From the NCBI GenBank assembly GCA_963783375.1, contig CAWANH010000029.1, forward strand, positions 1,312,001-1,376,000: 64,000 nucleotides of DNA. Direction: 5' to 3'. The notes beneath the pieces are model-generated. The model was not told where the DNA came from. It saw only the letters and a program-made list of their open reading frames with translations, and did no database searches. Source of the stretch: Candidatus Eiseniibacteriota bacterium (GTDB lineage: Bacteria > Eisenbacteria > RBG-16-71-46 > JABDJR01). The number at the start of each line of letters is the position of its first letter. Within the stretch, counting starts at the first letter, position 1. Of this stretch, positions 90-17,214 are shown piece by piece. Both the position numbers and the translations under genes were made by a program.

Positions 90-1919
90 CTACAGCACCA
101 CCCGGATGTGGAGGTCCTGAAGGTCGTGGGGATCCACTTCCGCCGGGGCCCCGTCCATGAGGCTCGTGGCCCGGGCGGTCTTGGGGAACGCGATCACGTC
201 CCGGAGCGACTTGCTCCCGTTCATGAGCATGACCAGCCGGTCGAGCCCGGGGGCGATCCCCCCGTGGGGAGGCGCCCCGTACTGGAAGGCCTCCAGGAGG
301 AATCCGAATCGGCGCTCCGCGTCTTCGGCGCTCATCCCCACCACCTTCATGACCCGCTCCTGGATGTCCCGCCGGTGAATACGGATGGAGCCCGAGGCCA
401 GCTCGAGTCCGTTGGCCACCAGGTCGTAGAGGTTGCCGTGCACTTTCCCCGGATCGGTTTCCAGGTAGTCCAGGTGCTCCTCCAGGGGCATGGTGAACAT
501 GTGGTGGGCGGGCTCCCACCGTCCCGACTCGGCGTTGAACTCGAAGAGGGGGAACTCCCGGACCCACAGGAACCGGAACTCCTTCTCCCGCCCCGCCACC
601 AGGGGCTCGCCGAGCAGGGTGCGGACCGCTCCCAGGCCGCGGCAGGCGATGAGCCAGGTATCGGCCACGAACAGGAGGAGGTCTCCCGGCTTCGCGCCCA
701 GGACGTTCCGGAGGGCCGTCCCGTCGCCCAGGAACTTCCCGATCCCCCCCTCGAGCCCCGCGTCGGTCACCTTGGTCCAGGCCAGGCCCTTGGCCCCGTA
801 GGGCTTGGCCGCCGCCTCCAGGGTCTCGATCTCCTTCCGGCTCCGCGCCGCGCCCCCCGGCACCCGGAGCCCCTTCACCGTCCCCCCCCGGGCCAGCGCC
901 TCGTCGAAAACCTTGAACCCGAGCCCCCGAACCGAATCGGAAACGTCGGTGAGTGGAAGCTCGAAGCGCAGGTCCGGCTTGTCGGTGCCGTAGGTGTCCA
1001 TGGCCTCGCGGTAGGTGAGCCGCTGGAACGGGATGGGGAGATCGACGTCAAGGCAGCTCTTGAACACGTGGGCCATGAGCCCTTCGACCACCTCGAACAC
1101 GTCGTTCTCGCGAACGAAGGCCATCTCCATGTCGATCTGGGAGTGCTCGGGCTGGCGGTCGGCCCTGAGATCCTCGTCCCGCAGGCAGCGCGCGATCTGG
1201 AAGTAGCGATTCATCCCGCTCACCATGAGAATCTGCTTGTATAGCTGCGGGCTCTGGGGAAGAGCGTAGAACTTCCCGGGGTGGAGCCGGGCGGGAACGA
1301 CGTAGTCCCGAGCCCCTTCGGGGGTCGGCCGCACCATCATCGGGGTCTCCACCTCGATGAAGTCGAGTCCGTAGAGGTACTTTCTCACCTCCAGGGTCAC
1401 CCGCGAGCGGAGCCGGAGGGCCCGCTGGAGCGCCGGGCGGCGGAGATCCAGATAGCGGTAGCGGAGCCGCAGATCCTCGGAGACCTCGGCTTCGTCTTCC
1501 ACCGGAAAGGGTGGGGTTCTGGACGCGTTCAGGACGCGCACTTCCGAGGCCTCGACCTCGATCTCCCCGGTGGGGAGCTCGCGGTTCACCATGTCGGCCG
1601 GGCGGGCCCCCACCGCGCCCCGGACCGCCAGCACGAACTCGGCCCGGGCCGCGCGCGCCTTGGCCAGGGTCCCGGCGCTCACCTTCCCCGGATGAAAGAC
1701 CACCTGGGTGAGCCCGGTGTGGTCGCGGAGATCCACGAACACCACCCCCCCGTGGTCGCGGGTGCGGTGGACCCAGCCCATGAGCACCGCTTCGGCGCCG
1801 GCGTCGGGGCCTCGAAGCTCCCCGCACAAATGGGTGCGGCTCCAATCCCCCAGAAGCTCCGGCTGGAGTTTCGGCCCGTCGTCGGGGGCGCCCCCGATCC
1901 GTTCGTTCTCAGACGTCAT
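90..1919 (-). CDS. aspS: Aspartate--tRNA ligase
   Basis: RTHLCGELR, RDHGGVVFVDLRD, LPQSPQLYKQ, RDEDLRADRQPE and GAPPHGGIAPGLDRL motifs; overlaps hisS stop. Confidence 0.97.
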   Translation of the reverse strand: MTSENERIGGAPDDGPKLQPELLGDWSRTHLCGELRGPDAGAEAVLMGWVHRTRDHGGVVFVDLRDHTGLTQVVFHPGKVSAGTLAKARAARAEFVLAVRGAVGARPADMVNRELPTGEIEVEASEVRVLNASRTPPFPVEDEAEVSEDLRLRYRYLDLRRPALQRALRLRSRVTLEVRKYLYGLDFIEVETPMMVRPTPEGARDYVVPARLHPGKFYALPQSPQLYKQILMVSGMNRYFQIARCLRDEDLRADRQPEHSQIDMEMAFVRENDVFEVVEGLMAHVFKSCLDVDLPIPFQRLTYREAMDTYGTDKPDLRFELPLTDVSDSVRGLGFKVFDEALARGGTVKGLRVPGGAARSRKEIETLEAAAKPYGAKGLAWTKVTDAGLEGGIGKFLGDGTALRNVLGAKPGDLLLFVADTWLIACRGLGAVRTLLGEPLVAGREKEFRFLWVREFPLFEFNAESGRWEPAHHMFTMPLEEHLDYLETDPGKVHGNLYDLVANGLELASGSIRIHRRDIQERVMKVVGMSAEDAERRFGFLLEAFQYGAPPHGGIAPGLDRLVMLMNGSKSLRDVIAFPKTARATSLMDGAPAEVDPHDLQDLHIRVVL

Positions 1920-3187
1920 GATTCAATCCTCAGAATGTCCTCTAGATGGGCTTCGAGGCCGGTGTCGTCCACCGACGCCTGGTCTCCCGAGACCATGTCC
2001 TTCACCGTCCAGTGCTTTCCGGCCAGCTCCCCTTCCCCCACGATCACCACCGTGCGGGCGCCGCTTCGGTTGGCCGCCTTCATCTGGTTTCCAAGGTTCC
2101 GCTCCAGGAGATCCACGTCCACCCGGAACCGCGCGCGGAGCCGGTGGGCGAGGCTGAGCGCGGCTTCACGTTCCCGATCGCCGCCCGCGGTCACCACCGA
2201 GACCTCGGGAGCGGGCGCGCCGGGGAGGGAGACGCCTTCGGCCTCCAGCGCGAGCAGGATTCGCTCCACCCCGGTGGAGAAGCCCACTCCGGGGGTGGCC
2301 GGCCCACCCACCTCCTCCACCAGGCGGTCGTAACGGCCGCCGCCCCCCACCGCGTTCTGCGCTCCGAGCCCGCCGTGCTGGATCTCGAACACGGTTCGGG
2401 TGTAGTAGTCCAGGCCGCGCACCAGCCGGTCGTCCACCACCACCTCGATGCCCGCGTCGCGCAAGAGCGTCAGCACCCGCTCCTGGTGGGCGCGGCAGTC
2501 GTCGCAGAGGTGCTCCTGGATGCTGGGAATTTTCGCCGCCACCGTGCGGCACCCCTCCACCTTGCAGTCGAGCACCCGGAGCGGGTTCATCCCCACCCGT
2601 CTCACGCAATCCACACAGAGCCCATCCAGGTGATCCTGGAGATAGGTACGGAGCGCCTCGGTGTAGGCCGGTCGGCAGGCGCCGTCCCCCACGCTGTTCA
2701 CCAGCGCCGTGACCCCGGTGAGACCCACCGCGCCGAGGAGCCGCGCGAAGAGCGAGATCATCTCGAAATCGGCCCCGGGCGAGTCGGCGCCCAGAAGTTC
2801 GGCCCCGATCTGCTGGTGCTGGCGATAGCGGCCGGCCTGGGGGCGTTCGTAGCGGAACATCGGGCCGAGGTAGTAGACCTTCCACGGTTTGGGTCCGGCG
2901 TAGAGCTTGTGCTCCACGAAAGCGCGGGCCACCGAGGCGGTGCCCTCGGGTCTCAAGGTCAGGCTCCGGCCCTTCCGGTCGGGGAAGGTGTACATCTCCT
3001 TCTGCACGATGTCGGTGGACTCCCCCACCCCGCGCAGAAACAGCTCGGTGTGCTCGAACACCGGGGTGCGGATCTCGCCGAATCCGTAACGCTCGAGCAC
3101 GCTTCGAAACGCGGCCTCCACCCGTTCCCACGCCGGAGTGCGGTCGGGAAGAATGTCCTGGGTGCCCCGGGGGGCGTTCAGTTTCAT
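1916..3187 (-). CDS. hisS: Histidine--tRNA ligase
   Basis: Starts MKLNAPRGTQD at 3187; LTLRPEGTA, FRYERPQAGRYRQ, LVRGLDYYT, GGGRYD. Confidence 0.97.
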   Translation of the reverse strand: MKLNAPRGTQDILPDRTPAWERVEAAFRSVLERYGFGEIRTPVFEHTELFLRGVGESTDIVQKEMYTFPDRKGRSLTLRPEGTASVARAFVEHKLYAGPKPWKVYYLGPMFRYERPQAGRYRQHQQIGAELLGADSPGADFEMISLFARLLGAVGLTGVTALVNSVGDGACRPAYTEALRTYLQDHLDGLCVDCVRRVGMNPLRVLDCKVEGCRTVAAKIPSIQEHLCDDCRAHQERVLTLLRDAGIEVVVDDRLVRGLDYYTRTVFEIQHGGLGAQNAVGGGGRYDRLVEEVGGPATPGVGFSTGVERILLALEAEGVSLPGAPAPEVSVVTAGGDREREAALSLAHRLRARFRVDVDLLERNLGNQMKAANRSGARTVVIVGEGELAGKHWTVKDMVSGDQASVDDTGLEAHLEDILRIES

Positions 3188-3612
3188 GATCCGGTGCTCC
3201 CGTGCGAGTTTTCCGCCCCACCCCGGTCCCGTTGCCAGAGCCAGTGGGGGGAGTTCGAGGTCCGGCCCCGGAGCCATGCGTCCACCGAGACCGCGATCAG
3301 GACCGCGGTCAGGTCGGTGAGCCAATCTCCCAGACTCTTGTCGCGACCCACCGTCCCCTGAAAGGTCTCGTCCAGGGCGGCGATCCCCGCGCCCATGATC
3401 ACCGCCAACGCCATCCGGAGCCCGGCCCGGCGATTCTGGAGGGTGCGCCCCCACGCCCGGGCCAGGAGTCCTCCCAGGAGGGCGTACTCCATGAAGTGGG
3501 CCACCTTGTCGGCGTTGACCACGTGACCGGGAGGCGCCAGGGTCGGGATCGACGACAGGGTGAAGATGAGGGCGGCGTAGGTCGCCACCGGCAGCCATGC
3601 GCTCAGACTCAA
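3184..3612 (-). CDS. VanZ family membrane protein
   Basis: YAALIFTLSSIP..DKVAHFMEYALLG..DE..Q..R..SLGDWLTD pattern; TTG start overlapping upstream stop (TTGA). Confidence 0.8.
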   Translation of the reverse strand: MSLSAWLPVATYAALIFTLSSIPTLAPPGHVVNADKVAHFMEYALLGGLLARAWGRTLQNRRAGLRMALAVIMGAGIAALDETFQGTVGRDKSLGDWLTDLTAVLIAVSVDAWLRGRTSNSPHWLWQRDRGGAENSHGSTGS

Positions 3613-4103
3613 CCCGTAATCCGCTCTTCCTCGTGTCGAATGCAGGCCATGGCCTCGGCCGGAGTGCGCGCGCGCAGGAGGTTCCGCTGGAGATCTCCCG
3701 AGTAGAGAAGCCGGCTGATCCGGGCCAACACCCGGATGAACCCACCCCGTTCTTCGGGTCCCGCGACCAGGAACACGAGCTGGACCGGACGCTCGTCCAG
3801 CGCGTCGAAGTCGATGGGCCGGACCAGGCGGCCCAACGCCAGGGAGAGCCGGGTGGCTCCCGGGCTCTGGGCGTGGGGAACGGCGATTCCCCCCCCGATG
3901 CCGGTGCTCATGACCCGCTCGCGCTGCTGGATGTCGGCGACCATGCGCGAGGCGTCGGTGACCGCTCCCGCCTCCACCAGCGCCTCGACCAAAGCGTCGA
4001 TGACGGCATCCTTGGTGGACGCCGCCACATCCAGCCGCACGCACGACTCGTCGAGGATCTCGGTGAGCAGGGTCGTCCCTTTCGAATGAAAACGGCCTCG
4101 CAT
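3609..4103 (-). CDS. PTS EIIA domain protein (PtsN/fructose-mannitol type); start uncertain
   Basis: QRERVMSTGIGGGIAVPHA phospho-His motif; PIDFDALDERPVQLVFL. Confidence 0.9.
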   Translation of the reverse strand: MRGRFHSKGTTLLTEILDESCVRLDVAASTKDAVIDALVEALVEAGAVTDASRMVADIQQRERVMSTGIGGGIAVPHAQSPGATRLSLALGRLVRPIDFDALDERPVQLVFLVAGPEERGGFIRVLARISRLLYSGDLQRNLLRARTPAEAMACIRHEEERITG

Positions 4104-4191
4104 CGGGCCCACGGGCCGCGAGGGCTCTGGGTGATCCGACGGCGACGCCGAACGCCGGAACGGTAATGCGCGCAATCGGTTTCTCCGATGA

Positions 4192-4301: not shown

Positions 4302-4970
4302 TCATCTCCGATACACGAAGCTCATCTCGAACCACGCCTCCACCGGCTCGCCCCCGCGTCGCGCCGGGACGAAACGCATGGCCCGGGCCGATCGTTCGAG
4401 GGCCTCACGGAGGGGAGCGGGGAGATCGGGTTTCCGGGGCACGACCTCGGCCACCCGGCCCCGGCGATCCACCCGCAGCCGCACCGAGATCTCGAGCGGC
4501 GAGGGGAGCCCCTCGGACTCCTCGGGGGTCAGGGGCAATGCTCCGGCCAGAAGCTTGGGGGGTCGATACCGGAGCGCGCCCGGCGCGCCGCTCCGGGGGG
4601 CCGTCGCCGCCGGCGATCCCGCCGCCGGTTCCGAGGCCCCGGCGCTACCCGCCCCCGTCGCCGCCGGCGTCCGGGCAGGATTCTCGGAGGGGGCCTCGGC
4701 CGGGGGCGGATCCTGGATGGGCGGGGCGGCCACCGCCGGAGCCGGCGGGGGGGCCTCGACCGGTTCCGGGCGCGGCGGCCCCGCCACGGCCGCCGGTCCC
4801 CACGGCACCAGCGATACCGTCAACGGACCTTCGAGGTGGCTCCCCGCCCGACCCGGCTCCTCCCGGGGAGTCAGCCCTTCCCACCAGCTGCCGGGCGCCA
4901 GGACCAGCGCGACGTGGAAGAGCACGGAGGCGGCCGCGGTCCGGGCCAGAACCCGGTTCTCGCCGCTCAT
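4302..4970 (-). CDS. TonB family protein (TM anchor, Pro-rich linker, TonB_C)
   Basis: ASVLFH anchor motif; VRLRVDRRGRV..AMRFVPARRGGEPVEAW C-terminal domain. Confidence 0.8.
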   Translation of the reverse strand: MSGENRVLARTAAASVLFHVALVLAPGSWWEGLTPREEPGRAGSHLEGPLTVSLVPWGPAAVAGPPRPEPVEAPPPAPAVAAPPIQDPPPAEAPSENPARTPAATGAGSAGASEPAAGSPAATAPRSGAPGALRYRPPKLLAGALPLTPEESEGLPSPLEISVRLRVDRRGRVAEVVPRKPDLPAPLREALERSARAMRFVPARRGGEPVEAWFEMSFVYRR

Positions 4971-6958
4971 CGCGCCCGCGCCCGTTCCAGGACGGTGAAG
5001 GGGCCGGAGCGCCCGGCGGCGCGTCCCCCCAGGAGATCCTCGACCTCCACCCGGAGAACGTAGCCACCGGGATCGAGAGGCGGCAGGTCCACCGAGAGGA
5101 GCTGGGACAGGTTCGGCCCCGGGCCCGAGTCCTCGAACACCAGCTCACCCTCCGGGCTCGACCCCCCGAAGGGAAGGAGGACGTGGAACCAGCCACGGGC
5201 GGTCTGCCGTCCGACGGTGACCCGGATCCGGACCGAGTGGTCCCCGTTCCCGTCCTGCTTCAGCCCGTAGGTTTCGAAGCCGATCCCGATCGGGCGGTCC
5301 CCCCGGTAGACGTGCCCGGGATTGGGAAGGGCGCTGCCGTAGGCCCAGGGATACCCCCCGTCCCCGGGATCGAACCCCACCTTGCTGAAGAAGGCGAGGT
5401 CGCTCAGGCTCGGGCGGGCGCGGGCGGTGTCCGGCGGGAGGGCCGCGTAGAGGTCGGACCGCCCCGCCTCCTGCCGATCGAGGGTCTCCATGCCCACGAT
5501 GAGGCTCTCGGGGAGCGCGTCGAGCCGGAAGAGACCGATGAGCCGTCCCAGGTCGTCCTTCTGGAACAGGGCCCAGCTTCCCACCGCCGCGTCGCGACGC
5601 GTCCAGGTCGAGTCGTAGAGGGCGATCCGGGTGGCCAGCCGGTAGGGCGCGTCCAGGACCCCGCCCGGCCAATCCTCGGGTGAGAGCGCCGCCGCCACCT
5701 CGATCCGCCCCCGACCGGTGGCCGGGTCGAGGAAACGCCAGATCTCGATCTCCTGGTCCCGCTCGGGCGACGGGAAGGGCGGCCGGTAAGTGGACGGGTA
5801 CTGGGCGGCGAAGAGGTCCAGGTTCGATGGGCTCCCGGAGATCGGCGGGAGAAACCGTCCGTTCAGGTTGTAGTCCAGGAAGGTGAAGAGGATCGTTCCG
5901 CCGTCCTGGCCGTAGCGAACGTCGATGGAGGGAACGGCCAGCCATGAGTTCACGCGACAGTCGGGGCCGCGCCGGACGTCGGCGAGGTAGCTCCAGTCCG
6001 AGGGAATGCCGTAGCGCACCAGCATCTCGCCCGGCGCGACGTCCCAGCCCGGGATCCCGGACGACTCCTGTCCGAACAGGAGCTCGGCCAGCACCATGCG
6101 CCGGTAATGATCGAGGAGCCGGGGGTTCTCCCGGTCGGCGGGAGTGGGGTCGCGCCAGCGCCAGTAGTCCCGCCAGTAGCGAAGGGTGTCGGCGGATGCC
6201 TCCCGTTCTTCTTCCGCCCGGGGGTCGACCGCGGCCAGGCTGATGAAGGGTTTTCGCTCCGTCTCGCTCATCAGGGCGAAAGCGGCGGCGTAGGCCCGGC
6301 GGGCCCGGGTCCAGGCGCCGGCCCGGGTGAAGAGCATGCCCCGGACCAGATGGGGCCACGCGCTTTCCGGCGCCGCGTCCCTCATCCGGGCGCAAAGGGA
6401 ATCCAGCGCGCCGTCCCTTCCCTGGATCGCGGCGATCCGCATCTCCCGCCTGAGGGTGGTGGTATCGCCGGGGTCGATGGCCAGGGCCCGCCCGTTCTCC
6501 CGCGCCGCATCGGCAAGGAAGCTCAGGCGGTGGAACTGCTCGAAGCGCCGAAGTTCATGCCCGGCCAGCTCGCCTCGAACGTCCGCCCGATTCGGGGCCA
6601 GCGCGATGGCCCGGCGGTAAGCGAGCCGGGCCTCGCGTCGGTATTTCCGGCGTTCCTGGAGCCTTGCCAGCTGCAGCCAGGTGTCGGGATCGCGATCGTC
6701 GATGAGAACAGCCTGATCGAGGAGCTCGGCCGCCTCCCGGCGGTTCTCCACGTCGTCGCTCGCCCCCAGGATGCGGGCAAGAGTGCGTCGCGCTTCCAGG
6801 TTCCGCCGATCGGCCCGGACCTCCCTCCGCAGTTCGTCGACGTGGGCGGTGGAGTCGGCCGGGGCCGCGTGGGAAGCGGGAGGAAAGGAGAGGTGAAGAA
6901 GTCCAACCAGGAGCGCTACGGCAACCCGCACGGGGCCGGTATGCCGTGGAGTGCGCAC
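4967..6958 (-). CDS. Exported TPR + GWxTD-like domain protein
   Basis: Signal peptide ..PPASHA-A; TPR helices; YWRWRDPTPADREN..HYRR..GWDVAPGEMLVRYGIP; C-terminal Ig-like (LDPGGYVLRVEVEDL). The listed ORF extension to 8176 is out-of-frame overlap. Confidence 0.75.
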   Translation of the reverse strand: MRTPRHTGPVRVAVALLVGLLHLSFPPASHAAPADSTAHVDELRREVRADRRNLEARRTLARILGASDDVENRREAAELLDQAVLIDDRDPDTWLQLARLQERRKYRREARLAYRRAIALAPNRADVRGELAGHELRRFEQFHRLSFLADAARENGRALAIDPGDTTTLRREMRIAAIQGRDGALDSLCARMRDAAPESAWPHLVRGMLFTRAGAWTRARRAYAAAFALMSETERKPFISLAAVDPRAEEEREASADTLRYWRDYWRWRDPTPADRENPRLLDHYRRMVLAELLFGQESSGIPGWDVAPGEMLVRYGIPSDWSYLADVRRGPDCRVNSWLAVPSIDVRYGQDGGTILFTFLDYNLNGRFLPPISGSPSNLDLFAAQYPSTYRPPFPSPERDQEIEIWRFLDPATGRGRIEVAAALSPEDWPGGVLDAPYRLATRIALYDSTWTRRDAAVGSWALFQKDDLGRLIGLFRLDALPESLIVGMETLDRQEAGRSDLYAALPPDTARARPSLSDLAFFSKVGFDPGDGGYPWAYGSALPNPGHVYRGDRPIGIGFETYGLKQDGNGDHSVRIRVTVGRQTARGWFHVLLPFGGSSPEGELVFEDSGPGPNLSQLLSVDLPPLDPGGYVLRVEVEDLLGGRAAGRSGPFTVLERARAR

Positions 6959-6966
6959 CGCCGAGC

Positions 6967-9900
6967 TTACACGCGCGGGACCGGCCGGATGCCGTAGCGG
7001 GTTATCTTGTTCTTCAGGCCCTTGCGGCTCAATCCCAGTTCCTGAGCGGCCCGGGTCTTGTTCCAGGCGTGCTTCTTCAGCGCATCCACCACCAGCCGCC
7101 GCTCCACGTCCTCCACCGAGGCCCGGAGATCGTTCTCCCCGTGGTCCAGGACGGAGCCGCGGGCACTGTCGGTGGCGGAAAGGATCTCGCGGGGAAGGAG
7201 GTCCAGGCTGATGGACTCGTCGTCCTCGGCCAGGATGGCCGCCCGGCGAACCGCCTTTTCCAGCTCGCGAACGTTTCCCGGCCACTGGAAGCGCACCAGT
7301 CTCTGCATCGCGGTGCGGTTGAACCCGCTGATGGACCGCGAGGTCTGGGCGTTGAAGGTCTCCAGGAAGTACTCGGCCAGAAGCGGGATGTCCTCGGGAC
7401 GCTCCCGGAGGGCGGGGACCCGGATGATGATGTCGTTCAACCGGTAGTAGAGATCCTTGAGGAAGGGTTCCTCGTCCTGGTTCAGGAGATCCTTCTTGCT
7501 GGTGGCGCAGATCACCCGGACGTTGAGCTTCCGATAGCTGTTGGAGCCGACCGGCCGCACCTCGCCCTCGTCGAGAAGGTGGAGCAGCCGCCGCTGGACC
7601 CCGAGACCCGACTTGCCGATCTCGTCCAGGAAAATGGTTCCACCGTCCGCCTCCTCGAAGAGCCCCTTCTTGTCGTGGCTGGCCCCGGTGAAGGCCCCCT
7701 TGGTGTAGCCGAAGAGTTCGGACTCCAGGAGGTTCTCGGGAAGCGCGGCGCAATCCACGGTCACGAACGACCCCTCGGCCCGGTCGCTGGACAGGTGGAT
7801 GGCCCGGGCGATCAGGGTTTTCCCCGTCCCGGTCTCCCCCTGGAGCAACACGGTGAGATTGGTGCGATTCACCTTCTCCACCAGCTTCAGGATCTCGACC
7901 ATTTCCTGGTTCTGGGTGACCACGTCGGCAAGGAAGGTGCGGCGGCGAAGGCTGTCCTCCTCGGTGGGGATGATCGTCGCCTCCAGGGAGGCGCGATCCA
8001 CCAGGGCCTCGAGCTGGGAGGTGAGAGCCAGGCAAAGGTTCAGATGACTCGGCCCGAAAGAGGACCGGCGCCCCTCCTCCAGTCGATCGAGATACAGGTA
8101 GGCCGCCTCGCCGTTCCCGTAGATCGGAATGACCATGAAGGAGGACATCCGGCGGGTCTCGACGAGGCCGGTCCACGGCTTACGGACCGTGGTGGCGGCG
8201 TCGAGCACGATCTCCGGCCGCTCGGGCCGGAGCTGGGTCAGGGTAGCGACCAGCCGCTGGCTGATGGCCGACCCGATGCGATAGGTGGTCGTGGGAACCG
8301 GACCGTTGGTGAAGACAAGGCCGGCTCCGTCCGCTTCCACCGCCTGGGCCATGATCCCGAGCACGGCGTCCAGCTTGGCCTGGTAGGGGCGGCGGGATTC
8401 CACCACCTCTTCGAGCCGGCCCGCGGTGCGGAAGGCGCCGAGGTTGGTGACCGAGGTATCCACGAGCCGGGTCTCCAACTCGTTCTGAACCTGGGCCAGG
8501 AGCTTGACCAGGGAGGGGTCGGCGACCACATCCATGCCGCTCCGCGCCGCCTCGAGGTATTCCCCCGCCCGATCGAGGTCCCCGCGGCGGCTGGCCGCCC
8601 CCGCCAGCATGATCGAGCACTCCACCTCCAGATCCCGGAGACCGAGAGCCTTGAAACCCTGGCGGGCCTCGCCGAGGGCGACCTCGGCCCGAGCCAGATC
8701 CTTACCGCCGTGAAGCCGCAGGCGGCCTTCTTCCATCAGGGTGTGGGCCAGCGGGAAGGGGCTCCCCAGCCGGCGGAGCAGGTCCTGGGCCTCGGCGATC
8801 AGTTCGTAGCCCGAGGCCTCGCCCTGGGCCAGAAGCACCCGCCCGTGGGTCAGCTTGGCCAGGGCGGATTCCATGCGATCCCCCACCCGCACCGAAAGCT
8901 CCTCGGCGCGGCGGGCCAGACCGGCGGCGTCCGCCGGCTTGCCGTCGACCAGATCGAGGTCGGCGCGAAGCCGGAGAAGCTCCCGCACGAGATCGCCCTC
9001 GGGGGAGATCTCCATCGCCTTGCGCCAGGCCACCTCGAAGCAGCGACGGGACCGGGCCAGATCGCCGCGAGCCTGGTGAAGCTGTCCCAACGATCGGTAG
9101 GTGAGCGCGGTCTCGCGCGGATACTGCTCCTCCGAGCAGAGCTCCAGGGACTGTTCGAGGGATTCCAGGGCGTGATCCCAGCGCCGCTCGATCAGGTCCA
9201 CTCCGGCCGTTCCCACCAGGGCGCGGATCGTGCCCAGGGGATCGTTCACCGCGCGGCAAAGCTTGAGCGATTCGGAGAAGCACTCGCGGGCGCGCTCCCA
9301 GTGTCCCATCTTGAAGTGGACGATACCCAGGTTGTGGAGCCCGCCGGCATGCCGCTCGGGGTACTCCCCCTCGATGGCCTGGAGGCTGGAGGAGACCTGG
9401 AGATACTCCAGGGCCCGCCGCCAGTCGCACTTCTCCTTGTAGATCAACCCGAGGTTGTTGTAGGCGAGAGAGAGGCTGCGGATGTCCCCCGCGCCCTTGA
9501 AGGCGGAAAGTGCCTGCTCGAAACAACGCGCGCTCTCTCCCAGATCGCCCTTGCGGTTGTGCGCGGAGCCGAGGAGGTTCAGCGCGAACCCGCGGGAGGA
9601 CGGATCGGTCTTGGGATCGATAAGCTTCATGGCGTCGGCGCCGCAACGAAGCGCGGTGTCGATAGCGCCCTGTCCTAGGTGGATCTTCCCCAGCTTGATG
9701 AGGACGCGACCCAGCTCAGGTTCGTCCTCCGCCGCCCGCGCGGCGGCGGCGGCGTCCTCGAGGACGTTGAGCGCTTCCTTCCACCGGCCGATTCGCTCCA
9801 GACAGCTCCCGATCCCCTTCAATGCCCGGGCCTTCTGGGATGCGCTGACGTCCGCGTCCAGGGCCCGACGGTACGTCCGTACCGCGGACTCGTAGTTGGC

Positions 9901-10008
9901 GGCGGCCTGTTCCAGGTCGGCCACGCTCAACATCTCCTCCGCAGTCTGGAGCTTCTGAGCCTCGGCACTCACTCCCGGTGAGGCGCTTTTCTGGGCTCGA
10001 TCAGCCAT
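6967..10008 (-). CDS. Sigma54-dependent enhancer-binding protein: N-terminal TPR array, GAF-like domain, AAA+, Fis HTH
   Basis: GETGTGKT, ESELFGYTKGAFTGA, IFLDEIG, WPGNVRELE, WNKTRAAQELGLSR; repeated AYNNLG/LHNLG TPR motifs in first ~500 aa. Confidence 0.93.
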   Translation of the reverse strand: MADRAQKSASPGVSAEAQKLQTAEEMLSVADLEQAAANYESAVRTYRRALDADVSASQKARALKGIGSCLERIGRWKEALNVLEDAAAAARAAEDEPELGRVLIKLGKIHLGQGAIDTALRCGADAMKLIDPKTDPSSRGFALNLLGSAHNRKGDLGESARCFEQALSAFKGAGDIRSLSLAYNNLGLIYKEKCDWRRALEYLQVSSSLQAIEGEYPERHAGGLHNLGIVHFKMGHWERARECFSESLKLCRAVNDPLGTIRALVGTAGVDLIERRWDHALESLEQSLELCSEEQYPRETALTYRSLGQLHQARGDLARSRRCFEVAWRKAMEISPEGDLVRELLRLRADLDLVDGKPADAAGLARRAEELSVRVGDRMESALAKLTHGRVLLAQGEASGYELIAEAQDLLRRLGSPFPLAHTLMEEGRLRLHGGKDLARAEVALGEARQGFKALGLRDLEVECSIMLAGAASRRGDLDRAGEYLEAARSGMDVVADPSLVKLLAQVQNELETRLVDTSVTNLGAFRTAGRLEEVVESRRPYQAKLDAVLGIMAQAVEADGAGLVFTNGPVPTTTYRIGSAISQRLVATLTQLRPERPEIVLDAATTVRKPWTGLVETRRMSSFMVIPIYGNGEAAYLYLDRLEEGRRSSFGPSHLNLCLALTSQLEALVDRASLEATIIPTEEDSLRRRTFLADVVTQNQEMVEILKLVEKVNRTNLTVLLQGETGTGKTLIARAIHLSSDRAEGSFVTVDCAALPENLLESELFGYTKGAFTGASHDKKGLFEEADGGTIFLDEIGKSGLGVQRRLLHLLDEGEVRPVGSNSYRKLNVRVICATSKKDLLNQDEEPFLKDLYYRLNDIIIRVPALRERPEDIPLLAEYFLETFNAQTSRSISGFNRTAMQRLVRFQWPGNVRELEKAVRRAAILAEDDESISLDLLPREILSATDSARGSVLDHGENDLRASVEDVERRLVVDALKKHAWNKTRAAQELGLSRKGLKNKITRYGIRPVPRV

Positions 10009-10045
10009 AACTCCAACCCTCCGTGCTTAACCCGCGGCCGGGGGC

Positions 10046-10408
10046 CTAACGGACGTGGTAACCAAAGATGCGAGTACCGAAGACCGCGAGCAGCCAACCG
10101 ATCAGCTGTCCGAAGGGACTGCCGGGGACCGTCGGAGGCGCTGGGGGGTTGATTCTGCCGAACCCCACGCCGAACTGGCCGTCGATCTGGAACGTGTCGG
10201 GATCTGCATCGAGGCCGCCGGAATCGCCCGTCCCACCGTGGTCGCCGGTGGGCCCGGGAGGATTCTGTCCCACCAGGAACTCCCCCATGGGGCCGGGGTC
10301 GTTGTCGTTGGCCTGGACGGCGGGAACGGCAGGCAGCAACACCCACAACACGAGTGCCGTCGCCACCGCGAGGAGGGCGGGCCCGTGGGATGTGTGATTG
10401 CGTTTCAT
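10046..10408 (-). CDS. Small secreted protein / candidate pro-peptide (120 aa)
   Basis: RBS GAGGTGA, ATG at 10408; Sec signal ending AVQA; G/P/D-rich middle; amphipathic C-terminal helix. Confidence 0.7.
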   Translation of the reverse strand: MKRNHTSHGPALLAVATALVLWVLLPAVPAVQANDNDPGPMGEFLVGQNPPGPTGDHGGTGDSGGLDADPDTFQIDGQFGVGFGRINPPAPPTVPGSPFGQLIGWLLAVFGTRIFGYHVR

Positions 10409-10460
10409 TGCGTCACCTCGCTCATCGGGTGTACATGGAAACCTTGTCACCATTACCAAA

Positions 10461-10476
10461 CGCACGTCCCATGCCA
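10461..10476 (-). promoter_or_regulatory. Sigma54 promoter (proximal)
   Basis: TGGCATGGGACGTGCG: GG-N10-GC spacing, ~50 nt upstream of ATG 10408. Confidence 0.6.
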
Positions 10477-10691
10477 TCCCACACGATTCCGTCCCGAATT
10501 CCCAAACACCGTAACTGTTTGAAAACTTGGGAGGTAGCCGGCAGGTTCCTCCCGGAGCCTCCGATTCTCTGAACGACAGTATAGCCGCCCCACCGGCTCG
10601 CCGCTACCCACCTGAAGGCGGATTTGAACTAACCTATTGAAATACAACAAGTTAAATATGGTAACCAAGTACCCACCCCAGGGCCGGATTG

Positions 10692-10708
10692 TGCAACCGC
10701 ATTGCCAG
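10692..10708 (-). promoter_or_regulatory. Sigma54 promoter (distal)
   Basis: CTGGCAATGCGGTTGCA, close to the YTGGCACG-N4-TTGCW consensus. Confidence 0.65.
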
Positions 10709-10973: not shown

Positions 10974-12347
10974 ATGAAACAGCGCGCCATTCCCTTCCGA
11001 GAGCTGCTGCAGCAGGTCCTTCCCCTGGACCGGCTGCCGGCGGCGGACCGCGCCCGTGTGGAAGCAGCCATCCGGGAAGGGGATCCGCGCACCCTGGAGG
11101 CGCTGGCCTTCGAGCTCCTCGACCGCCTCGTCGACCTCGGCCATCTCCGCCTGGTGGAGGAGGTGCTCCGGGGGGATGAGAAGATCCGCCGCTACCGGGA
11201 TCTCACCACCGGCAACACCATCGCCCTGAGGCTCCCGGTGGGCGACGAGGACGAGGGGATCCACAAGATCCCGCTCCCGCTCCGGGACTGGAAGGGGGCG
11301 GCGTCCCTCGACCAGATCCGCACTCTCTTCAACCTGTACAACAAGATCCTGACCCAGGACTCCCATCTCCTTCGCGGGCCCAGGGACATCCTGCGCCAGG
11401 TCATGCTCACCGTGCGACAGATCCTCGGGTGCGAGCGCGTCACCTTCTGGATGGCGGGAAAGAGCCCTGAGGGAGGCCTCCCCCTGGAGAACCTGAACGG
11501 GGAGCCCTACGACCCGGATCTGGCCCGGGAATGGGTGCTCACCCGGCGCTACCTGGTGGTCCTTCCCGAGCTTCCCGCCCAGATCGACCCCAGCACCGGA
11601 CGTCTGGAAACCGACTTTCACTCCCTGGCCATGATCCCGGTGGGTGAATCCGATCAGGCGGTCTACGGGGTCCTCCACGCCTGGAGCGTCCATTCCCACT
11701 TCTTCGACGAGGATCGCCAGGGACTGATGAGCCTGCTCTCGGAGTTCGCCACCGACCTCCTCCGCCGCTCCGAGATCCTGGGCAACCTGGTGTTCGTCGA
11801 CGCCTCGACCCAGGTCTACAACCGGGCCTACTTCAACCTCCAGCTCGACAACGAGATCGCCCGCGCCCGCCGGGATTCGAAGCCGCTGGCCCTGGCCATC
11901 GTGGACATCGACGACTTCAAGTCCTTCAACAGCCGCTACGGCTACGAAGGGGGGAACCAGGTCCTGGCCAACACCGCCCAGGTCCTGAAGAACGGCCTCC
12001 GCCCCTTCGATTCGGTGGCCCGCTGGGGCGGGGAGGAGTTCGCGCTCATCCTGACCCCGCCGGTCACCCCGGAGGATGCCCTGGCGGTGTGCGAGCGACT
12101 GCGCCGGGCGACCGAACTCTCCCACTTCAGCATTACCGGGCTCGAGGGCCAGTCGGTGGCCAGTCGCATCACGGTGAGCATCGGAGGCGCGGTCTACCCG
12201 CAGGACGGCGCCTCGGCGGGTTCGCTGTGGAGGGCGGCCAACGCGGCTCTCGTCCACGCCAAGCGCACCGGCAAGAACCGGGTCGTGTTCGCCTCGGACC
12301 TCCCCCCGGACGCCGAAGCGGGCCCGGAGCGCGAGCGGCGCGGCTAG
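10974..12347 (+). CDS. GAF + GGDEF diguanylate cyclase
   Basis: DASTQVYNR, DIDDFKSFNSRYG, RWGGEEF, AKRTGKNRV. Confidence 0.92.
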   Translation: MKQRAIPFRELLQQVLPLDRLPAADRARVEAAIREGDPRTLEALAFELLDRLVDLGHLRLVEEVLRGDEKIRRYRDLTTGNTIALRLPVGDEDEGIHKIPLPLRDWKGAASLDQIRTLFNLYNKILTQDSHLLRGPRDILRQVMLTVRQILGCERVTFWMAGKSPEGGLPLENLNGEPYDPDLAREWVLTRRYLVVLPELPAQIDPSTGRLETDFHSLAMIPVGESDQAVYGVLHAWSVHSHFFDEDRQGLMSLLSEFATDLLRRSEILGNLVFVDASTQVYNRAYFNLQLDNEIARARRDSKPLALAIVDIDDFKSFNSRYGYEGGNQVLANTAQVLKNGLRPFDSVARWGGEEFALILTPPVTPEDALAVCERLRRATELSHFSITGLEGQSVASRITVSIGGAVYPQDGASAGSLWRAANAALVHAKRTGKNRVVFASDLPPDAEAGPERERRG

Positions 12348-13026: not shown

Positions 13027-16000
13027 TCAGCGAGCCACCGCCACCCGCTCCAAGTGCTTGATTTCTTTTCCGTTACCGCCGTGGGCGTCGAACATGAGCA
13101 GGTACACGCCGTTGGCCACCCGGTCCCCCCCTTCGTCGCGGAGGTCCCAGGCGAAGGCGTTGGTCCCGGCGAGGGAGGGTACCGGGGTCCTGAGAACCCG
13201 CCGGCCGGCCACGGTGTAGATGGTCACCCGGGCGTCCCGGGCGCTTTGATTCAGGGTGTAGACGAACCGGCCCCCTCCCCCGTCGGCCGGGTTGGGGTAG
13301 AAGAACGAGTTCAGGAGGTCGAACCCCTCTCCGGAGACCTGGAACTTGACCGATCGGGTCACCGCGCCCCCCACCTCGTCGGTCACCCGAAGCTCGGCGG
13401 CATGCAGGCCGGAGCCCCAGGTACGCTGGAGATCCAGCGTCCACTGCCTTCCCTCGGCGTCGAGCTTGGTCATGACGGGCTCGACGGAGGCCCCGTCTAC
13501 CACCAGGGCGATGGCCCCCTGGGCGAGGGGCACCGGGCTGGTAATCCGGGCCTGGATGACCGCGGTGGAGTCCACCAGGTCGGCTCCGGAGGAGCTTAGC
13601 TTCTTCCCGTCCGCGCTGAACTCGGTCTGGAACTGAACGGGGAGGGTGAATCGACTGATTCGCCCGGACCAGTCGGTGGCCTCGATGGCCACGTCGTAGG
13701 TGCCCAACCGCAGCGCGGTCTTGAACTGGACCTGGTAGGTCTGGGCCCCCTCCGCCCCGGCGTCCGGAGGCACCACCGTCACCCGGCCCGGCGGGACCTC
13801 GGTTTCCCCCTCGGTGACCCGAATCGTGGAGACGTCCACGTCGTCCGAGATCGCCGCGGACACCAGGATCGAATCCTGGAAGGAAGCGGCGGCGAGGGGA
13901 GTGCCGTCGGCCACCTGGGAGCCGTTCACCTCGACCCGGAGGTCGGCGGCGGCGATGTCCACCAAGAGAGCGGGATCTCCCAGGGTCACGTAGGTGCGGA
14001 GCATCTCCGCCCAGTGGGAGGTCATCCCGTGCTCCAGCGCGTTGGCCACGAAGGCGCGGGTCATGCAATCGCCCAGGATCCGCCGCGGACGGCCGGTGGC
14101 CGGGTCCCGGGGAAGGTCCCAGAACAGGGCCCGCGTGGTGTACGACTGGGCGTCGGGATTGGTGAGCAGCAGTTCGTAGGCGGTCGAGGCCACGGTGGCC
14201 ACCGCGCCCCGGTTGGGGGCCAGGAGCAGGGACTCCCCGATTGATTCTCCCCCCACTCCCCCGTTGGACCCCTCGTTCGCGTTCTCGAATTCGGCCAGGT
14301 GGCAGGCGTAGCCGAAGAAGAGGAACGGTTTGCCCAGGTTGTTGATCCGGTCCACGTCCCGCACCGAGAGCCGGGGATAGTTCTGGAACGTGGTCTCGGT
14401 GGTGATGATGTTGCGGTTGGCGTGTCCGGTGAACTCCCACACCAGACTCCCCCGGCTCACCTGGTCGACCAGGGCCGGGGTGACGTGGGACCGAACCCAG
14501 GGAATGGTCTCGGTCAGAAGACTCTTGCCGTCACGGCTGGGGCAATTGCCCACGATCCCGGGACGGCGGCCGAGAGACGCGACGGTGTCCACGTAGGCGT
14601 TCAGATAGAACGGGACGCACTGGAAGTCCATGAGCCCGCTTCGACCGGGGATGGAATCGCACATCGCCTCGGTGGTGGACCGGAAGACGACCTCGTCCGG
14701 CTTCCAGCAGTACCCCGAGTTGAAGGTGATGCTGGTCGAGTACTGGTCGTCGGCGAAGAAGACGCCGCGTTTCCGCCAGTCGTCGGTGGGTTGGGCGTTC
14801 TCGAAGGCGAGGATCTTCTCCACCATCCGGTTCACCTCGTCCACGCTTCCCACCGGGAGCCGGCCCACGTGCATCTCCGGGAGCACGTCCAGCTCGTCGT
14901 CCCCGGGGCGGAGCGCCGCCACGTACCAGTTGTCGGTCCCGGCCAGCTCCCGCCCTCCGGGGCCGGGCACGTGGCCGAAGTGCATCATGGTCGGCACCCA
15001 GTCCGGATCCGAAGTGGCCAGATCGTGCCGGTAGTCCTCGCTGGCGTCGCCGCCCAGCATGAGGTAGCTCGGGGCGGGGTCCCAGTTGCGGTAGGCCTGG
15101 GTGAGGAAGCGCCGGATGGCCCAGGGGGTCTTGTCGCCTCCCGAAAACTCGTCGTACACCTCCAGCACGTCGCAGAGGAGCACCTGGTGCCCCTGGGATT
15201 CCCGGTGCTGGACGAGCGGGGCCCAGGCGTCCCGGAACCCGGGTTGGGTCAGGAGCACGTAGTCGCTTCCCCGACCGGCGACCAGGAGGTCGCGGGTGAG
15301 CCCGGAGGCGATGGCCGTGGTGCCGAGATCGGGGGGCAGCGGATGCTCCGAGGGCGGAAGTCCGGTGATCCGGCTGGGGTCGAGGGCCACGAACGTGCGC
15401 CGGCTCCCGGTTCCCACGATCCGGATGGTGGCCGCATATCCGCCCTCCGAGGCCTCGACGTGGGGGGTGAGCCATACCGGGTTGGCCGGGTCGGTGATCT
15501 CCAGGACCTTGACGTCGGGGGTGGTGAACCCGGTCACCCGGAACTCGAGATTCCCGGTCAGGGACCAGTTGTTGAACACCAGCCGGTCGTCGTGGGCGCG
15601 GAGGAGCCGGCTGTAGTTCAGGTCGAACCAGTCGAATTCCGACCCGCTCAGGTTGGTGGAGAACGGCGTCCGGCCCAGGATGTGAACCTGATTCGTGCCG
15701 TCCACCAGACACCCGTTGATGGGCCGCGCGCCCGAATGCCAGGTGAACGTCTCCTGCTTCTTGAAGTGATAGTCCTCGAGGAGGGCGCAGTTGTTCATCT
15801 TGAAGGACACGACGTGGGTGTCCGCGGGGGCCACGGTGTAGACCCCCTGCCAGAGGGCATCCACCTGGAACATCCCGGCCGGGTCGGGGTCGTGGAGAAC
15901 GATGGACACGGTCTCGTTCACCTGGCGGGGATCGAACCAGTAGAGGGCGGACTTGGCCGGGTAGATCGAATTCCCGTCCTGGGGGGGATTGTTGAGGTAG

Positions 16001-17214
16001 TTCAGGTCCTTCTCGTAGTGCGTGTCCTGGGGGAACGAGGTGACCGGGGTCCATTCCCCATCCGCCGGATAGCCGTCCGCGCTCGGGATGTCCCGCCCCC
16101 CTTCATCCGACGCGGTAACCCAGTAGGTATGGAAGTACGAGTAGCGGCCGTCGGTGGGCTGGGGATGGAAACGATCCCGGTAGTTGAACCCGTAGAACTC
16201 CAGGAAGTCGCCGTCGTCGAACACCCCGTTGCCATTGGCGTCATCGATCGCCCGGGGAAGGTTGGTCACCAGGAACGGGTTGGCGCGGTTGGAGTCGTAG
16301 CCCCGTTCCTCCACCCGCACCCTGCCTACCGCCTGGTCCGCGGGGAATCCTTCCGAGGCCAGGTCGGCGTAGGGGATGCGGCTGAATCCGGTGGCGCCGA
16401 AACGAACCCGAACGAACGGCTGACCCTCGGGAAAGGCGCGGGGAACGCTCTGGGGCGCGGCCTGGGTCCGAAACCCGCCGGCCGAGGCCCCGTTCACCAG
16501 GACCTTGTCCTGGAGCTCCTCCCAGCCCGGAGCATCGGGGCCGGCGGGAACCGTCCGCACCACGCCCGGCTTGGCGCTCGGCGCCTCGCCGCGGCGATCG
16601 AAGGAGACCGTGACCTCGATCTGGGTGGCCACCCGGTATTCACCGGTGGCCGGGATCACCTGGACCGGGCTCACCGACACCACCGAGACCCGCTGGTGCC
16701 GCCAGCCCGCGGTCGGGCCCAGCTCGGCCACCTCGGGCGGGAACCAGCCGGCGGACCGGTAGACGGCAGGATCGGGGGTGTAGGTGTCCACCTCGGTGGG
16801 AAACGGATCGCCGTAGACGAACCGGGACCGGGGGACGGGAACCGGGGCCGACCCGTGAAAGGCGGTGCTGGCGATCACCCGGGTGGAAATCCGGGCGACG
16901 GCGCCCTCGGGGAGCGCAAACGGGAAACCGCGGCGGGGCAGGTTCGGGAGTCCGGCGTCCTCGCCACCCCGTCCGCCGTAGCCGGGGATCGTCACCGAGA
17001 GGTAGGTTCCCCCTTCCGGGAGGTCCACCGGCGCGGTGGTGGGCGGGGGCACGGTGACGCGGAGAGTGAAGCCGTCGGGGCCCTGGCGGGTCAGCTCCGA
17101 CCGTCCCGAGGTCGCAGGAGCGGGCGGAGCCGGAGCCTCGGCGGCCGGGACCGCGGCGGCGAAGACCATGAGGGCCACGGCCGATAACACGAACGAGGGC
17201 ATAGCCAGACGCAT
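13027..17214 (-). CDS. C25 (gingipain/PorU-like) cysteine peptidase with propeptide and C-terminal FlgD-Ig/T9SS-like domain
   Basis: YLMLGGDAS, MHVGRLPV, FTGHA (His) and GYACH (Cys) catalytic motifs, LGDPAL; YPNP..IYTVAGRRV..WDLRDEGGDRVANGVY tail; signal peptide. Confidence 0.88.
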   Translation of the reverse strand: MRLAMPSFVLSAVALMVFAAAVPAAEAPAPPAPATSGRSELTRQGPDGFTLRVTVPPPTTAPVDLPEGGTYLSVTIPGYGGRGGEDAGLPNLPRRGFPFALPEGAVARISTRVIASTAFHGSAPVPVPRSRFVYGDPFPTEVDTYTPDPAVYRSAGWFPPEVAELGPTAGWRHQRVSVVSVSPVQVIPATGEYRVATQIEVTVSFDRRGEAPSAKPGVVRTVPAGPDAPGWEELQDKVLVNGASAGGFRTQAAPQSVPRAFPEGQPFVRVRFGATGFSRIPYADLASEGFPADQAVGRVRVEERGYDSNRANPFLVTNLPRAIDDANGNGVFDDGDFLEFYGFNYRDRFHPQPTDGRYSYFHTYWVTASDEGGRDIPSADGYPADGEWTPVTSFPQDTHYEKDLNYLNNPPQDGNSIYPAKSALYWFDPRQVNETVSIVLHDPDPAGMFQVDALWQGVYTVAPADTHVVSFKMNNCALLEDYHFKKQETFTWHSGARPINGCLVDGTNQVHILGRTPFSTNLSGSEFDWFDLNYSRLLRAHDDRLVFNNWSLTGNLEFRVTGFTTPDVKVLEITDPANPVWLTPHVEASEGGYAATIRIVGTGSRRTFVALDPSRITGLPPSEHPLPPDLGTTAIASGLTRDLLVAGRGSDYVLLTQPGFRDAWAPLVQHRESQGHQVLLCDVLEVYDEFSGGDKTPWAIRRFLTQAYRNWDPAPSYLMLGGDASEDYRHDLATSDPDWVPTMMHFGHVPGPGGRELAGTDNWYVAALRPGDDELDVLPEMHVGRLPVGSVDEVNRMVEKILAFENAQPTDDWRKRGVFFADDQYSTSITFNSGYCWKPDEVVFRSTTEAMCDSIPGRSGLMDFQCVPFYLNAYVDTVASLGRRPGIVGNCPSRDGKSLLTETIPWVRSHVTPALVDQVSRGSLVWEFTGHANRNIITTETTFQNYPRLSVRDVDRINNLGKPFLFFGYACHLAEFENANEGSNGGVGGESIGESLLLAPNRGAVATVASTAYELLLTNPDAQSYTTRALFWDLPRDPATGRPRRILGDCMTRAFVANALEHGMTSHWAEMLRTYVTLGDPALLVDIAAADLRVEVNGSQVADGTPLAAASFQDSILVSAAISDDVDVSTIRVTEGETEVPPGRVTVVPPDAGAEGAQTYQVQFKTALRLGTYDVAIEATDWSGRISRFTLPVQFQTEFSADGKKLSSSGADLVDSTAVIQARITSPVPLAQGAIALVVDGASVEPVMTKLDAEGRQWTLDLQRTWGSGLHAAELRVTDEVGGAVTRSVKFQVSGEGFDLLNSFFYPNPADGGGGRFVYTLNQSARDARVTIYTVAGRRVLRTPVPSLAGTNAFAWDLRDEGGDRVANGVYLLMFDAHGGNGKEIKHLERVAVAR

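What the first reader, a model, noticed from the sequence alone, without database searches (positions are those of the whole stretch)
4302..10708. Candidate sigma54-coupled peptide-sensing (RRNPP-like) system in a diderm: pro-peptide + TPR-bEBP + GWxTD + TonB
Seen: four co-oriented, tightly packed genes (gaps 37 nt, 8 nt, 4-nt overlap). They encode a 120-aa secreted protein, a 1013-aa activator with a ~500-aa TPR array, GAF-like domain and intact GAFTGA AAA+/Fis, an exported TPR/GWxTD-like protein and a TonB. Two -24/-12 motifs precede them. Known: RRNPP regulators (Rap, NprR, PlcR, AimR) bind re-imported peptides via TPRs and sit next to their pro-peptide gene, but are described in Firmicutes with HTH or phosphatase outputs. 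Inference: the TPR array senses a fragment of the secreted protein and the activator drives its own operon (positive feedback). GWxTD/TonB may handle capture or import across the outer membrane.
Basis: partly seen in the sequence, partly recalled or inferred. Interest (0 to 1): 0.82.

Follow-up and report, generated by a model that had tools for sequence, protein, structure and literature searches.

The report
Peptide-sensing sigma54 switch with new RNA
In an uncultured two-membrane bacterial phylum, a small protein with an export signal is encoded just before a large gene activator that likely senses a piece of it, and in this lineage the activator is predicted to switch on its own genes and an undescribed structured RNA that likely turns the activator back down, which would be a new kind of peptide-signalling circuit.

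Summary
[quoted passage not shown] The host belongs to Ca. Eisenbacteria. A 90-126 aa signal-peptide ORF with a [GA][DE]PD-type motif precedes the TPR-GAF-sigma54 activator in 54 of 54 genome loci read. The activator's TPR groove keeps Arg/Lys/Asn residues that would suit an acidic peptide. Binding is untested (complex tool unavailable). This scan noted the pair before on other DNA. New here: a 17-bp palindrome plus sigma54 promoter marks the operon and a second unit, a structured non-coding RNA of about 270-440 nt with no Rfam match, found in 17 of the 18 genomes with this promoter pattern. Its invariant loop is complementary to the activator's ribosome-binding site (window 10019-10011) or to the peptide gene's leader in 12 of 17 lineage loci, against 1 of 37 others. 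This suggests LuxO-Qrr-like negative feedback. GWxTD and TonB-like genes follow only in one subclade (10 of 10 versus 0 of 34) and are likely cargo. It likely works like RRNPP but fails RRNPP membership.

The parts
10659..10675 (-). Distal 17-bp imperfect palindrome (TGGGTA-N5-TACCCA type); predicted enhancer (UAS) of the activator, 199 bp upstream of the -24 element
   Evidence: Found with at most 3 mismatches in 15 of 15 subclade loci, 179-207 bp upstream of -24 in 14 of 15; coordinates
10594..10610 (-). Proximal, weaker copy of the palindrome, 65 bp downstream of the first
   Evidence: GGGTAG invariant in 7 of 7 aligned promoters of the family
10578..10583 (-). Conserved TATACT; possible -10 hexamer of a basal sigma70-type promoter (inferred)
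   Evidence: Invariant in 7 of 7 aligned promoters; function untested
10461..10476 (-). Conserved sigma54 -24/-12 promoter motif of the operon
   Evidence: 15 of 15 subclade loci, 0 of 39 other loci by the strict pattern; rpoN present in the genome
10692..10707 (-).
   Evidence: -12 GC kept in 2 of 7 aligned promoters
10046..10408 (-). 120-aa protein with predicted export signal (putative pro-peptide): signal peptide, Gly/Pro-rich linker, motif ADPDTF (10207-10190), C-terminal amphipathic Trp-containing helix
   Evidence: no Pfam or NCBIfam family; differences from the closest relative fall mostly at third codon positions (18 of 35)
10011..10019 (-). GGGTTGGAG overlapping the activator's Shine-Dalgarno; predicted pairing site for the invariant loop of the RNA encoded at G000:C28:1072893-1072450 (minus strand)
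   Evidence: Present in 7 of 8 loci of this family and 9 of 10 metagenome subclade loci
9977..9986 (-). Possible second pairing site (GCCTC) in the first codons of the activator, for the RNA's GAGGCAGC loop; weak
   Evidence: Best match at the same offset in 13 of 14 loci, but not above background in the window itself
6967..10008 (-). 1013-aa activator: 12 TPR-like repeats, GAF-like domain, AAA+ with GAFTGA, Fis-type HTH
4967..6958 (-). TPR + GWxTD-domain protein with predicted export signal; subclade-specific operon cargo, function unknown
   Evidence: TIGR04514 over cut-off; 10 of 10 subclade loci vs 0 of 34 others
4302..4970 (-). Membrane-anchored, Pro-rich protein with a weak TonB-C-like end; subclade-specific cargo
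   Evidence: Below family cut-off; tblastn relatives in 6 of 10 subclade loci
10974..12347 (+). Divergent GAF-GGDEF gene, conserved neighbour sharing the intergenic region; not shown to belong to the circuit
   Evidence: Pfam; tblastn relatives in 15 of 40 extended loci

Best explanation
This is likely a peptide-controlled sigma54 switch: the small protein is predicted to be exported and cut, a short acidic piece around ADPD likely returns to the cytoplasm and binds the activator's TPR groove, and the activator is predicted to drive sigma54 transcription of its own operon and of a structured RNA that likely pairs with the activator's ribosome-binding site as negative feedback. Shown: gene pairing, motif conservation, domain layout, conserved promoter and palindromes ahead of both units, the RNA's conserved loops and fold, and the complementary site. 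Inferred, with rough odds: the activator binds the palindrome (0.8); the motif binds the TPR groove (0.7); the RNA represses the operon (0.6); the peptide travels between cells (0.45). Whether the peptide activates or inhibits is unknown. Import through an Opp-type ABC transporter is recalled from RRNPP systems and not shown here. The GWxTD and TonB-like genes are read as regulated cargo.
For: Pairing: 54 of 54 unique genome loci have the ORF; 51 carry the strict motif, against a mean of 1.7 in shuffles. 70 of 70 evaluable metagenome loci carry it (62 strict, 4 GD[ST]D, 4 after re-picking the ORF). In the own genome 3 of 91 small signal-peptide-like ORFs have the motif, and 2 of these precede the two TPR activators. 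The paralog's peptide repeats the motif twice, as duplicated Phr pheromones do (PMC11343458, abstract). Groove: R152, N184, N185, K191 and N226 are 92-98% conserved over 108 pairs; Asn-backbone anchoring is described for Rap (PMC3601957, passages). The TPR model matches peptide-bound Rap at Z 26.2, rmsd 3.9 over 339 residues, and NprR-NprX at Z 22.3. Regulon: palindrome + 160-190 nt + sigma54 motif gives 25 hits in 18 of 206 genomes, 1 hit in the reversed control; 11 are this operon's promoter and 12 the RNA. All 18 genomes hold this activator clade. RNA: sigma54 motif ahead of 16 of 16 model-confirmed copies and 0 of 14 chance pattern matches; fold z -5.58; 22 of 118 pairs with double changes. 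Feedback site: 12 of 17 vs 1 of 37 loci, chance about 0.03 per locus, at two different positions in two families. Seven PF00496 matches in the genome.
Against: No binding, processing or expression data. The groove-peptide covariation test did not beat its controls. APC5, APPBP2 and MalT domain III score above Rap, so the fold is a generic TPR superhelix; no RRNPP protein is among the Foldseek rows listed. The precursor is 120 aa and has a conserved amphipathic tail (44 of 54) that may tether it to a membrane rather than free it. The 4-residue core motif is nearly the same across the phylum, which gives little room for private signals. Eleven further genomes with a similar HTH lack the promoter pattern, and most pairs in the phylum have no sigma54 promoter, so autoregulation is lineage-specific. 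The feedback site is missing in 5 of 17 lineage loci. By duplex energy the activator's start region ranks only 20th of 1038. Related genomes are not independent samples. Which of the genome's roughly 25 sigma54 activators binds the palindrome is inferred from position and distribution.
Confidence: 0.5

Rival explanations
1. Cell-autonomous envelope or export sensor. The motif does bind the TPR groove, but the protein stays with its own cell: it is tethered by its amphipathic tail and released by a stress protease, or caught in the cytoplasm when export fails. No cell-to-cell signal.
For: Conserved basic, Trp-rich amphipathic C-terminal helix (44 of 54) at a fairly fixed distance from the motif; nearly invariant core motif; cargo genes and one further target are envelope proteins (GWxTD, TonB-like, a TonB-dependent-receptor-like gene).
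Against: Tandem duplication of the motif in paralog peptides and clade-specific residues after the core fit a diversifying ligand; feedback loops of this shape are typical of quorum circuits (PMC3262071, passages).
Confidence: 0.27
2. The small protein is only an output or partner of something else. The activator senses a small molecule through its GAF-like domain or a cytoplasmic protein through its TPRs, and the gene pair is kept for co-expression.
For: No direct evidence of contact; covariation test inconclusive; MalT domain III is a closer fold match than Rap.
Against: The pair is kept in 39 loci with no sigma54 promoter by the strict pattern, where the ORF would not be a local output; only four residues of the mature protein are conserved, and the groove keeps basic and Asn residues.
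Confidence: 0.12
3. The small ORF is a secretion-monitoring leader (SecM/VemP-like arrest peptide, recalled) that couples its own export to translation of the activator.
For: Signal-peptide ORF 10-116 nt upstream of the regulated gene in all 54 loci; Pro-containing motif.
Against: Residues upstream of the motif are not conserved, unlike tunnel-interacting arrest sequences (recalled); the motif is duplicated in some peptides; it does not explain the conserved groove.
Confidence: 0.06
4. One reading: the GWxTD and TonB-like proteins capture and import the peptide across the outer membrane.
For: Kept behind the activator in three families (10 of 10); the palindrome-promoter pattern also precedes a TonB-dependent-receptor-like gene in G056; a TonB gene follows the RNA in 5 of the 12 RNA loci read.
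Against: Absent from 34 other loci that keep the pair, including what is likely the G061 operon that has promoter, box and RNA; no outer-membrane receptor in the operon; the TonB match is below cut-off.
Confidence: 0.15

Closest known systems
RRNPP(A) receptor/pro-peptide pairs of Bacillota (Rap-Phr, NprR-NprX, PlcR-PapR, AimR-AimP)
   Same: Adjacent Sec-type small ORF and cytoplasmic TPR protein; conserved groove Asn/Arg; occasional motif duplication; fold match to Rap Z 26.2, NprR 22.3, AimR 21.5, PlcR 19.8.
   Different: Two-membrane host; receptor 1013 aa with the TPRs N-terminal and a GAF-AAA+-HTH sigma54 output; precursor 90-126 aa, upstream rather than downstream (PMC9765709, passages), with a conserved amphipathic tail; homology to RRNPP TPRs not shown.
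LuxO - sigma54 - Qrr sRNA circuit of Vibrionaceae
   Same: A sigma54 activator with two upstream sites drives an sRNA (PMC10162802, passages) that represses the activator's production (PMC3262071, passages).
   Different: LuxO is a phosphorylated response regulator fed by membrane kinases (recalled). Here the input is predicted to be direct peptide binding. The RNA is larger, matches no Rfam family, and no Hfq was found in the genome.
OxyS-fhlA two-loop kissing complex (E. coli)
   Same: Two exposed loops pairing with the RBS and early coding sequence of an activator mRNA (PMC10578473, passages).
   Different: OxyS is 110 nt and peroxide-induced; here the second site is only weakly supported.
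MalT domain III and other TPR-sensor ATPase activators
   Same: Superhelical sensor joined to an ATPase activator; Z 27.3, rmsd 3.6 over 359 residues.
   Different: MalT is a STAND-class sigma70 activator that senses maltotriose (recalled); it has no partner exported ORF.

Membership tests
RRNPP (criteria of PMC10075063, passages read) | Propeptide small (10-100 aa; validated 21-50 aa) | tested here: not met
   120 aa here; 90-126 aa over 54 loci
RRNPP | Propeptide secreted through Sec | tested here: inconclusive
   Basic N-terminus and hydrophobic stretch in 54 of 54 by a hydropathy rule; SignalP not available
RRNPP | Receptor 250-500 aa | tested here: not met
   1013 aa
RRNPP | Receptor has TPRs | tested here: met
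RRNPP | Receptor and propeptide genes adjacent | tested here: met
   37 nt here; 10-116 nt in 54 loci
RRNPP | Mature peptide is re-imported and binds the TPR groove | not testable with these tools
RRNPP | Common ancestry of the TPR domain with RRNPPA receptors (conserved Asn equivalent to RapF N227) | tested here: inconclusive
   Rap 6t3h matches the profile at E 5.8e-13 but far below LGN and KLC; non-RRNPP TPRs score higher in fold search; residue equivalence not mapped
sigma54 enhancer-binding proteins | AAA+ domain with GAFTGA and C-terminal HTH | tested here: met
   GAFTGA or GSFTGA in 51 of 51 long members
sigma54 enhancer-binding proteins | Target -24/-12 promoter with upstream palindromic sites | tested here: met
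   Sequence level only; binding not tested
Qrr or any Rfam RNA family | Match to a curated covariance model | tested here: not met
   No match over the RNA at E<=0.1 in the own locus or E<=1 in 9 relatives
GWxTD domain proteins (TIGR04514) | Score above family cut-off | tested here: met
   32.7 vs 28 bits
TonB family (TIGR01352) | Score above family cut-off | tested here: inconclusive
   13.4 vs 27.1 bits; N-terminal anchor, Pro-rich linker and weak C-terminal match present

The most novel reading that the evidence does not exclude
A complete peptide quorum-sensing circuit in a two-membrane phylum, built from parts not found together in the papers searched: an exported pro-peptide is re-imported and read directly by a TPR-sigma54 activator, whose main output is a new class of 270-440 nt Hfq-independent RNA that shuts the activator's translation through exposed loops and may control further mRNAs.
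Probability: 0.3. Interest if true: 0.92.

Novelty: new variant of a known kind. Interest (0 to 1): 0.8.

Why it matters
The papers read describe cytoplasmic receptors for secreted peptides as a feature of Firmicutes and their mobile elements (PMC10075063, PMC9765709), and the searches made listed no paper on a sigma54 activator controlled by a secreted peptide or on this pair. The published detector would miss this system by its length limits. The finding gives a testable circuit for an uncultured phylum: ligand motif, groove residues, enhancer, promoter, an RNA family without Rfam match, and its predicted target site. All can be rebuilt in E. coli. A peptide-gated sigma54 switch would also be a useful tight on/off part for synthetic biology.

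Tried and rejected
Complex prediction of TPR domain with peptide: tool not available, no result. Mutual-information test of peptide vs TPR groove columns on 108 pairs: 10 of the top 30 at groove positions for the motif window, but 11 of 30 for a flank upstream of the motif and only 7 of 30 for the core (shuffled pairings up to 7), so inconclusive. MAFFT + RNAalifold across families gave no consensus RNA fold (-0.09 kcal/mol); the shared three-way shape rests on 15 single-sequence folds read by eye and on within-family alignments. Second-loop target: 7 of 14 loci above background, none in family f12. A weak RNA-model hit in G016 lacks both loops and was rejected. The model missed the G055 copy, which is present. 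Two viral-contig matches to the RNA pattern were not followed up. No RNA holder listed. No RRNPP protein among the Foldseek rows shown; the full-length model returned only AAA+ domains. ESM Atlas gave no family for the small protein. A transmembrane C-terminal anchor was rejected (5 of 54 TM-like). A coding role for the RNA was rejected (ORFs differ in start and length; 1-2 nt indels). The 10707 motif was rejected as a conserved promoter. 'GWxTD' found 0 papers. The tree is the quick IQ-TREE version, as the careful search did not finish. Distribution outside Eisenbacteria was not tested. No supplementary files were read.
Full report
Observation. The four minus-strand ORFs, their spacing and domains are as described. 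The closest named loci are Ca. Eisenbacteria. The activator has 12 helix pairs, an alpha/beta domain read as GAF-like from the model only, an AAA+ domain with GAFTGA and a Fis-type HTH. The GWxTD call passes its cut-off; the TonB call does not. Of the two -24/-12 motifs only 10476 is conserved.

The pair is phylum-wide. The TPR-GAF part matched in 204 of 206 genomes at E<=1e-20; some of these may be other TPR proteins, and I read only part of them. From 70 fetched loci (15 duplicates and 1 without upstream DNA dropped) 54 of 54 have a 90-126 aa signal-peptide-like ORF 10-116 nt upstream, chosen by hydropathy and not by motif. 51 carry G[DE]P[DE], ADP[DN] or GD[NG]D; shuffles give a mean of 1.7 and a maximum of 7. 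The pattern was written after seeing the sequences. A metagenome scan gave 80 loci, 70 with enough upstream DNA: 62 strict, 4 GD[ST]D, and 4 with the motif once the right ORF was picked; some are the same organisms as the genome set. Five more loci also had the ORF with a variant motif. In the own genome 3 of 91 small signal-peptide-like ORFs have the motif, two of them ahead of the two TPR activators. The paralog's peptide holds the motif twice. Outside the signal peptide only four residues are conserved, plus a basic, Trp-rich amphipathic tail (44 of 54; transmembrane-like in 5 of 54).

The sensor. Over 108 unique pairs, 14 polar TPR positions are at least 75% conserved. Five (R152, N184, N185, K191, N226; 92-98%) fall on groove-facing positions by TPR numbering recalled from memory. 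Rap receptors anchor peptide backbones through such an Asn and an Arg (PMC3601957, passages). The TPR-only model (pLDDT 92.9) matches peptide-bound Rap (Z 26.2), NprR-NprX (22.3) and AimR (21.5), but APC5 (28.4), APPBP2 (27.4) and MalT domain III (27.3) rank higher. Binding is therefore inferred.

Autoregulation. The tree (quick method) separates an ortholog clade from a paralog clade. The sigma54 motif precedes the small ORF in 15 of 15 ortholog loci of families f1, f2 and f12 and in 0 of 39 others. The same 15 carry a 17-bp palindrome, 179-207 bp upstream of -24 in 14. A pattern of palindrome, 160-190 nt and sigma54 motif gave 25 hits in 18 of 206 genomes and 1 hit when reversed. The window's own promoter misses this exact pattern by one base. 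Eleven hits are this operon's promoter, including one in G061 found blind. All 18 genomes hold the ortholog (16 by HTH search, 2 cut by contig ends). Against a strict link: 11 other genomes have a similar HTH without the pattern.

A second target. Twelve of the 25 hits precede a non-coding stretch with changing neighbours; in most copies it ends in a terminator-like hairpin and T run. In the own genome it lies at C28, about 1072893 to 1072450, minus strand, behind two palindromes placed as in the window. It is present in 17 of the 18 genomes; the one without is 75% complete. All 16 model-confirmed copies have a sigma54 motif upstream and 15 a palindrome (one copy is cut by its contig end); 14 chance matches to the short pattern have neither. 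A model search of 150 genomes found 15 copies, all in these lineages, and one weak false hit. It has no Rfam match, folds at z -5.58 and shows 22 of 118 pairs with double changes in six sequences. A cross-family consensus fold failed, while single folds show an outer stem holding two hairpins with loops CCAACCCC and GGCAGC. The other two hits are a TonB-dependent-receptor-like gene and an unexplained leader in G041.

Predicted feedback. The complement of the first loop, GGGTTGG, overlaps the activator's Shine-Dalgarno in 7 of 8 f1 loci (window 10019-10011) and lies 33-37 nt ahead of the peptide start in 5 of 5 f12 loci. In total 12 of 17 lineage loci have it, against 1 of 37 others; that one is the paralog pair of a genome that has the RNA. 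Metagenome loci give 9 of 10 against 4 of 56; chance is about 0.03. It is missing in f2, f9 and G053, and in G061. Kin are not independent, so this amounts to two origins. The activator's start region ranks 20th of 1038 by duplex energy. A second site in the first codons is weak. The layout parallels LuxO-Qrr (PMC10162802 and PMC3262071, passages) and OxyS-fhlA (PMC10578473, passages). rpoN is present, Hfq was not found, and there are seven PF00496 matches.

GWxTD and TonB. A GWxTD profile hit 10 of 10 subclade loci with downstream DNA and 0 of 34 others, one of which had only 769 bases held. TonB-like relatives were found in 6 of the 10. These genes are conserved cargo of the autoregulated operon, not core parts. 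An import role is possible but unsupported.

Comparison and novelty. By the five published RRNPP criteria (PMC10075063, passages) two are met, one is inconclusive and two fail, so this is not a member; it likely works like one. In Bacillales systems the pheromone gene lies downstream (PMC9765709, passages); here it is upstream. Searches (listings only, apart from the papers cited) showed no paper on this pair, on GWxTD, or on this RNA; the library lacks most subscription papers. Earlier notes of this scan describe the pair and the two binding sites in other genomes. Look-ups by the RNA's sequence and by words returned nothing.

Verdict. Real and well conserved. The autoregulated sigma54 operon and the RNA target are well supported at sequence level; peptide binding is likely; cell-to-cell signalling is the least certain step. 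Interest 0.8.

Noticed in passing
G000:C28:1072893-1072450 (minus strand; L175, L212): Structured non-coding RNA without Rfam match, behind a sigma54 promoter and two palindromes; followed by a TonB-family gene in this genome.
   Followed up: yes
G000:C28:1470379-1473906 (L156): Paralog pair: 125-aa signal-peptide ORF with the motif twice, ahead of a second TPR-GAF activator with a different HTH and no sigma54 motif upstream; its targets are unknown.
   Followed up: partly
G000:C17:141659-141675 (L157): Perfect copy of the palindrome about 95 nt ahead of a 388-aa lipoprotein-like ORF with a Nal1_C domain; no sigma54 motif nearby.
   Followed up: partly
G056:C1:555950-559007 (L226): Palindrome plus sigma54 motif ahead of a 917-aa CarboxypepD_reg + Plug protein (TonB-dependent-receptor-like).
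   Followed up: partly
G041:C2:209836-210026 (L170): Palindrome plus sigma54 motif ahead of about 490 nt without a clear ORF, then an aminotransferase-like gene; possibly another RNA.
   Followed up: no
window 10974-12347 (+): Divergent GAF-GGDEF gene stays next to the pair in f1, f2, f12, f9 and f3, and could link the circuit to c-di-GMP.
   Followed up: partly
window 13027-17598 (-): Large C25 (gingipain-family) peptidase with propeptide and FlgD-Ig C-terminal domain, typical of the secreted proteins of this lineage.
   Followed up: no
window 90-4175 (-): PTS EIIA-like and VanZ-like genes, then genes that read as hisS and aspS (named from the translation, not from a family search), follow the operon; the PTS gene directly follows the activator where GWxTD/TonB are missing (f9, f3).
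   Followed up: partly
L058, L128, L142, L153, L154: Paralog-clade peptide leaders of f12-like loci also carry the GGGTTGG site, a hint of cross-regulation by the RNA.
   Followed up: no
L234, L235: Two viral contigs match the short RNA pattern; not examined, possibly chance.
   Followed up: no
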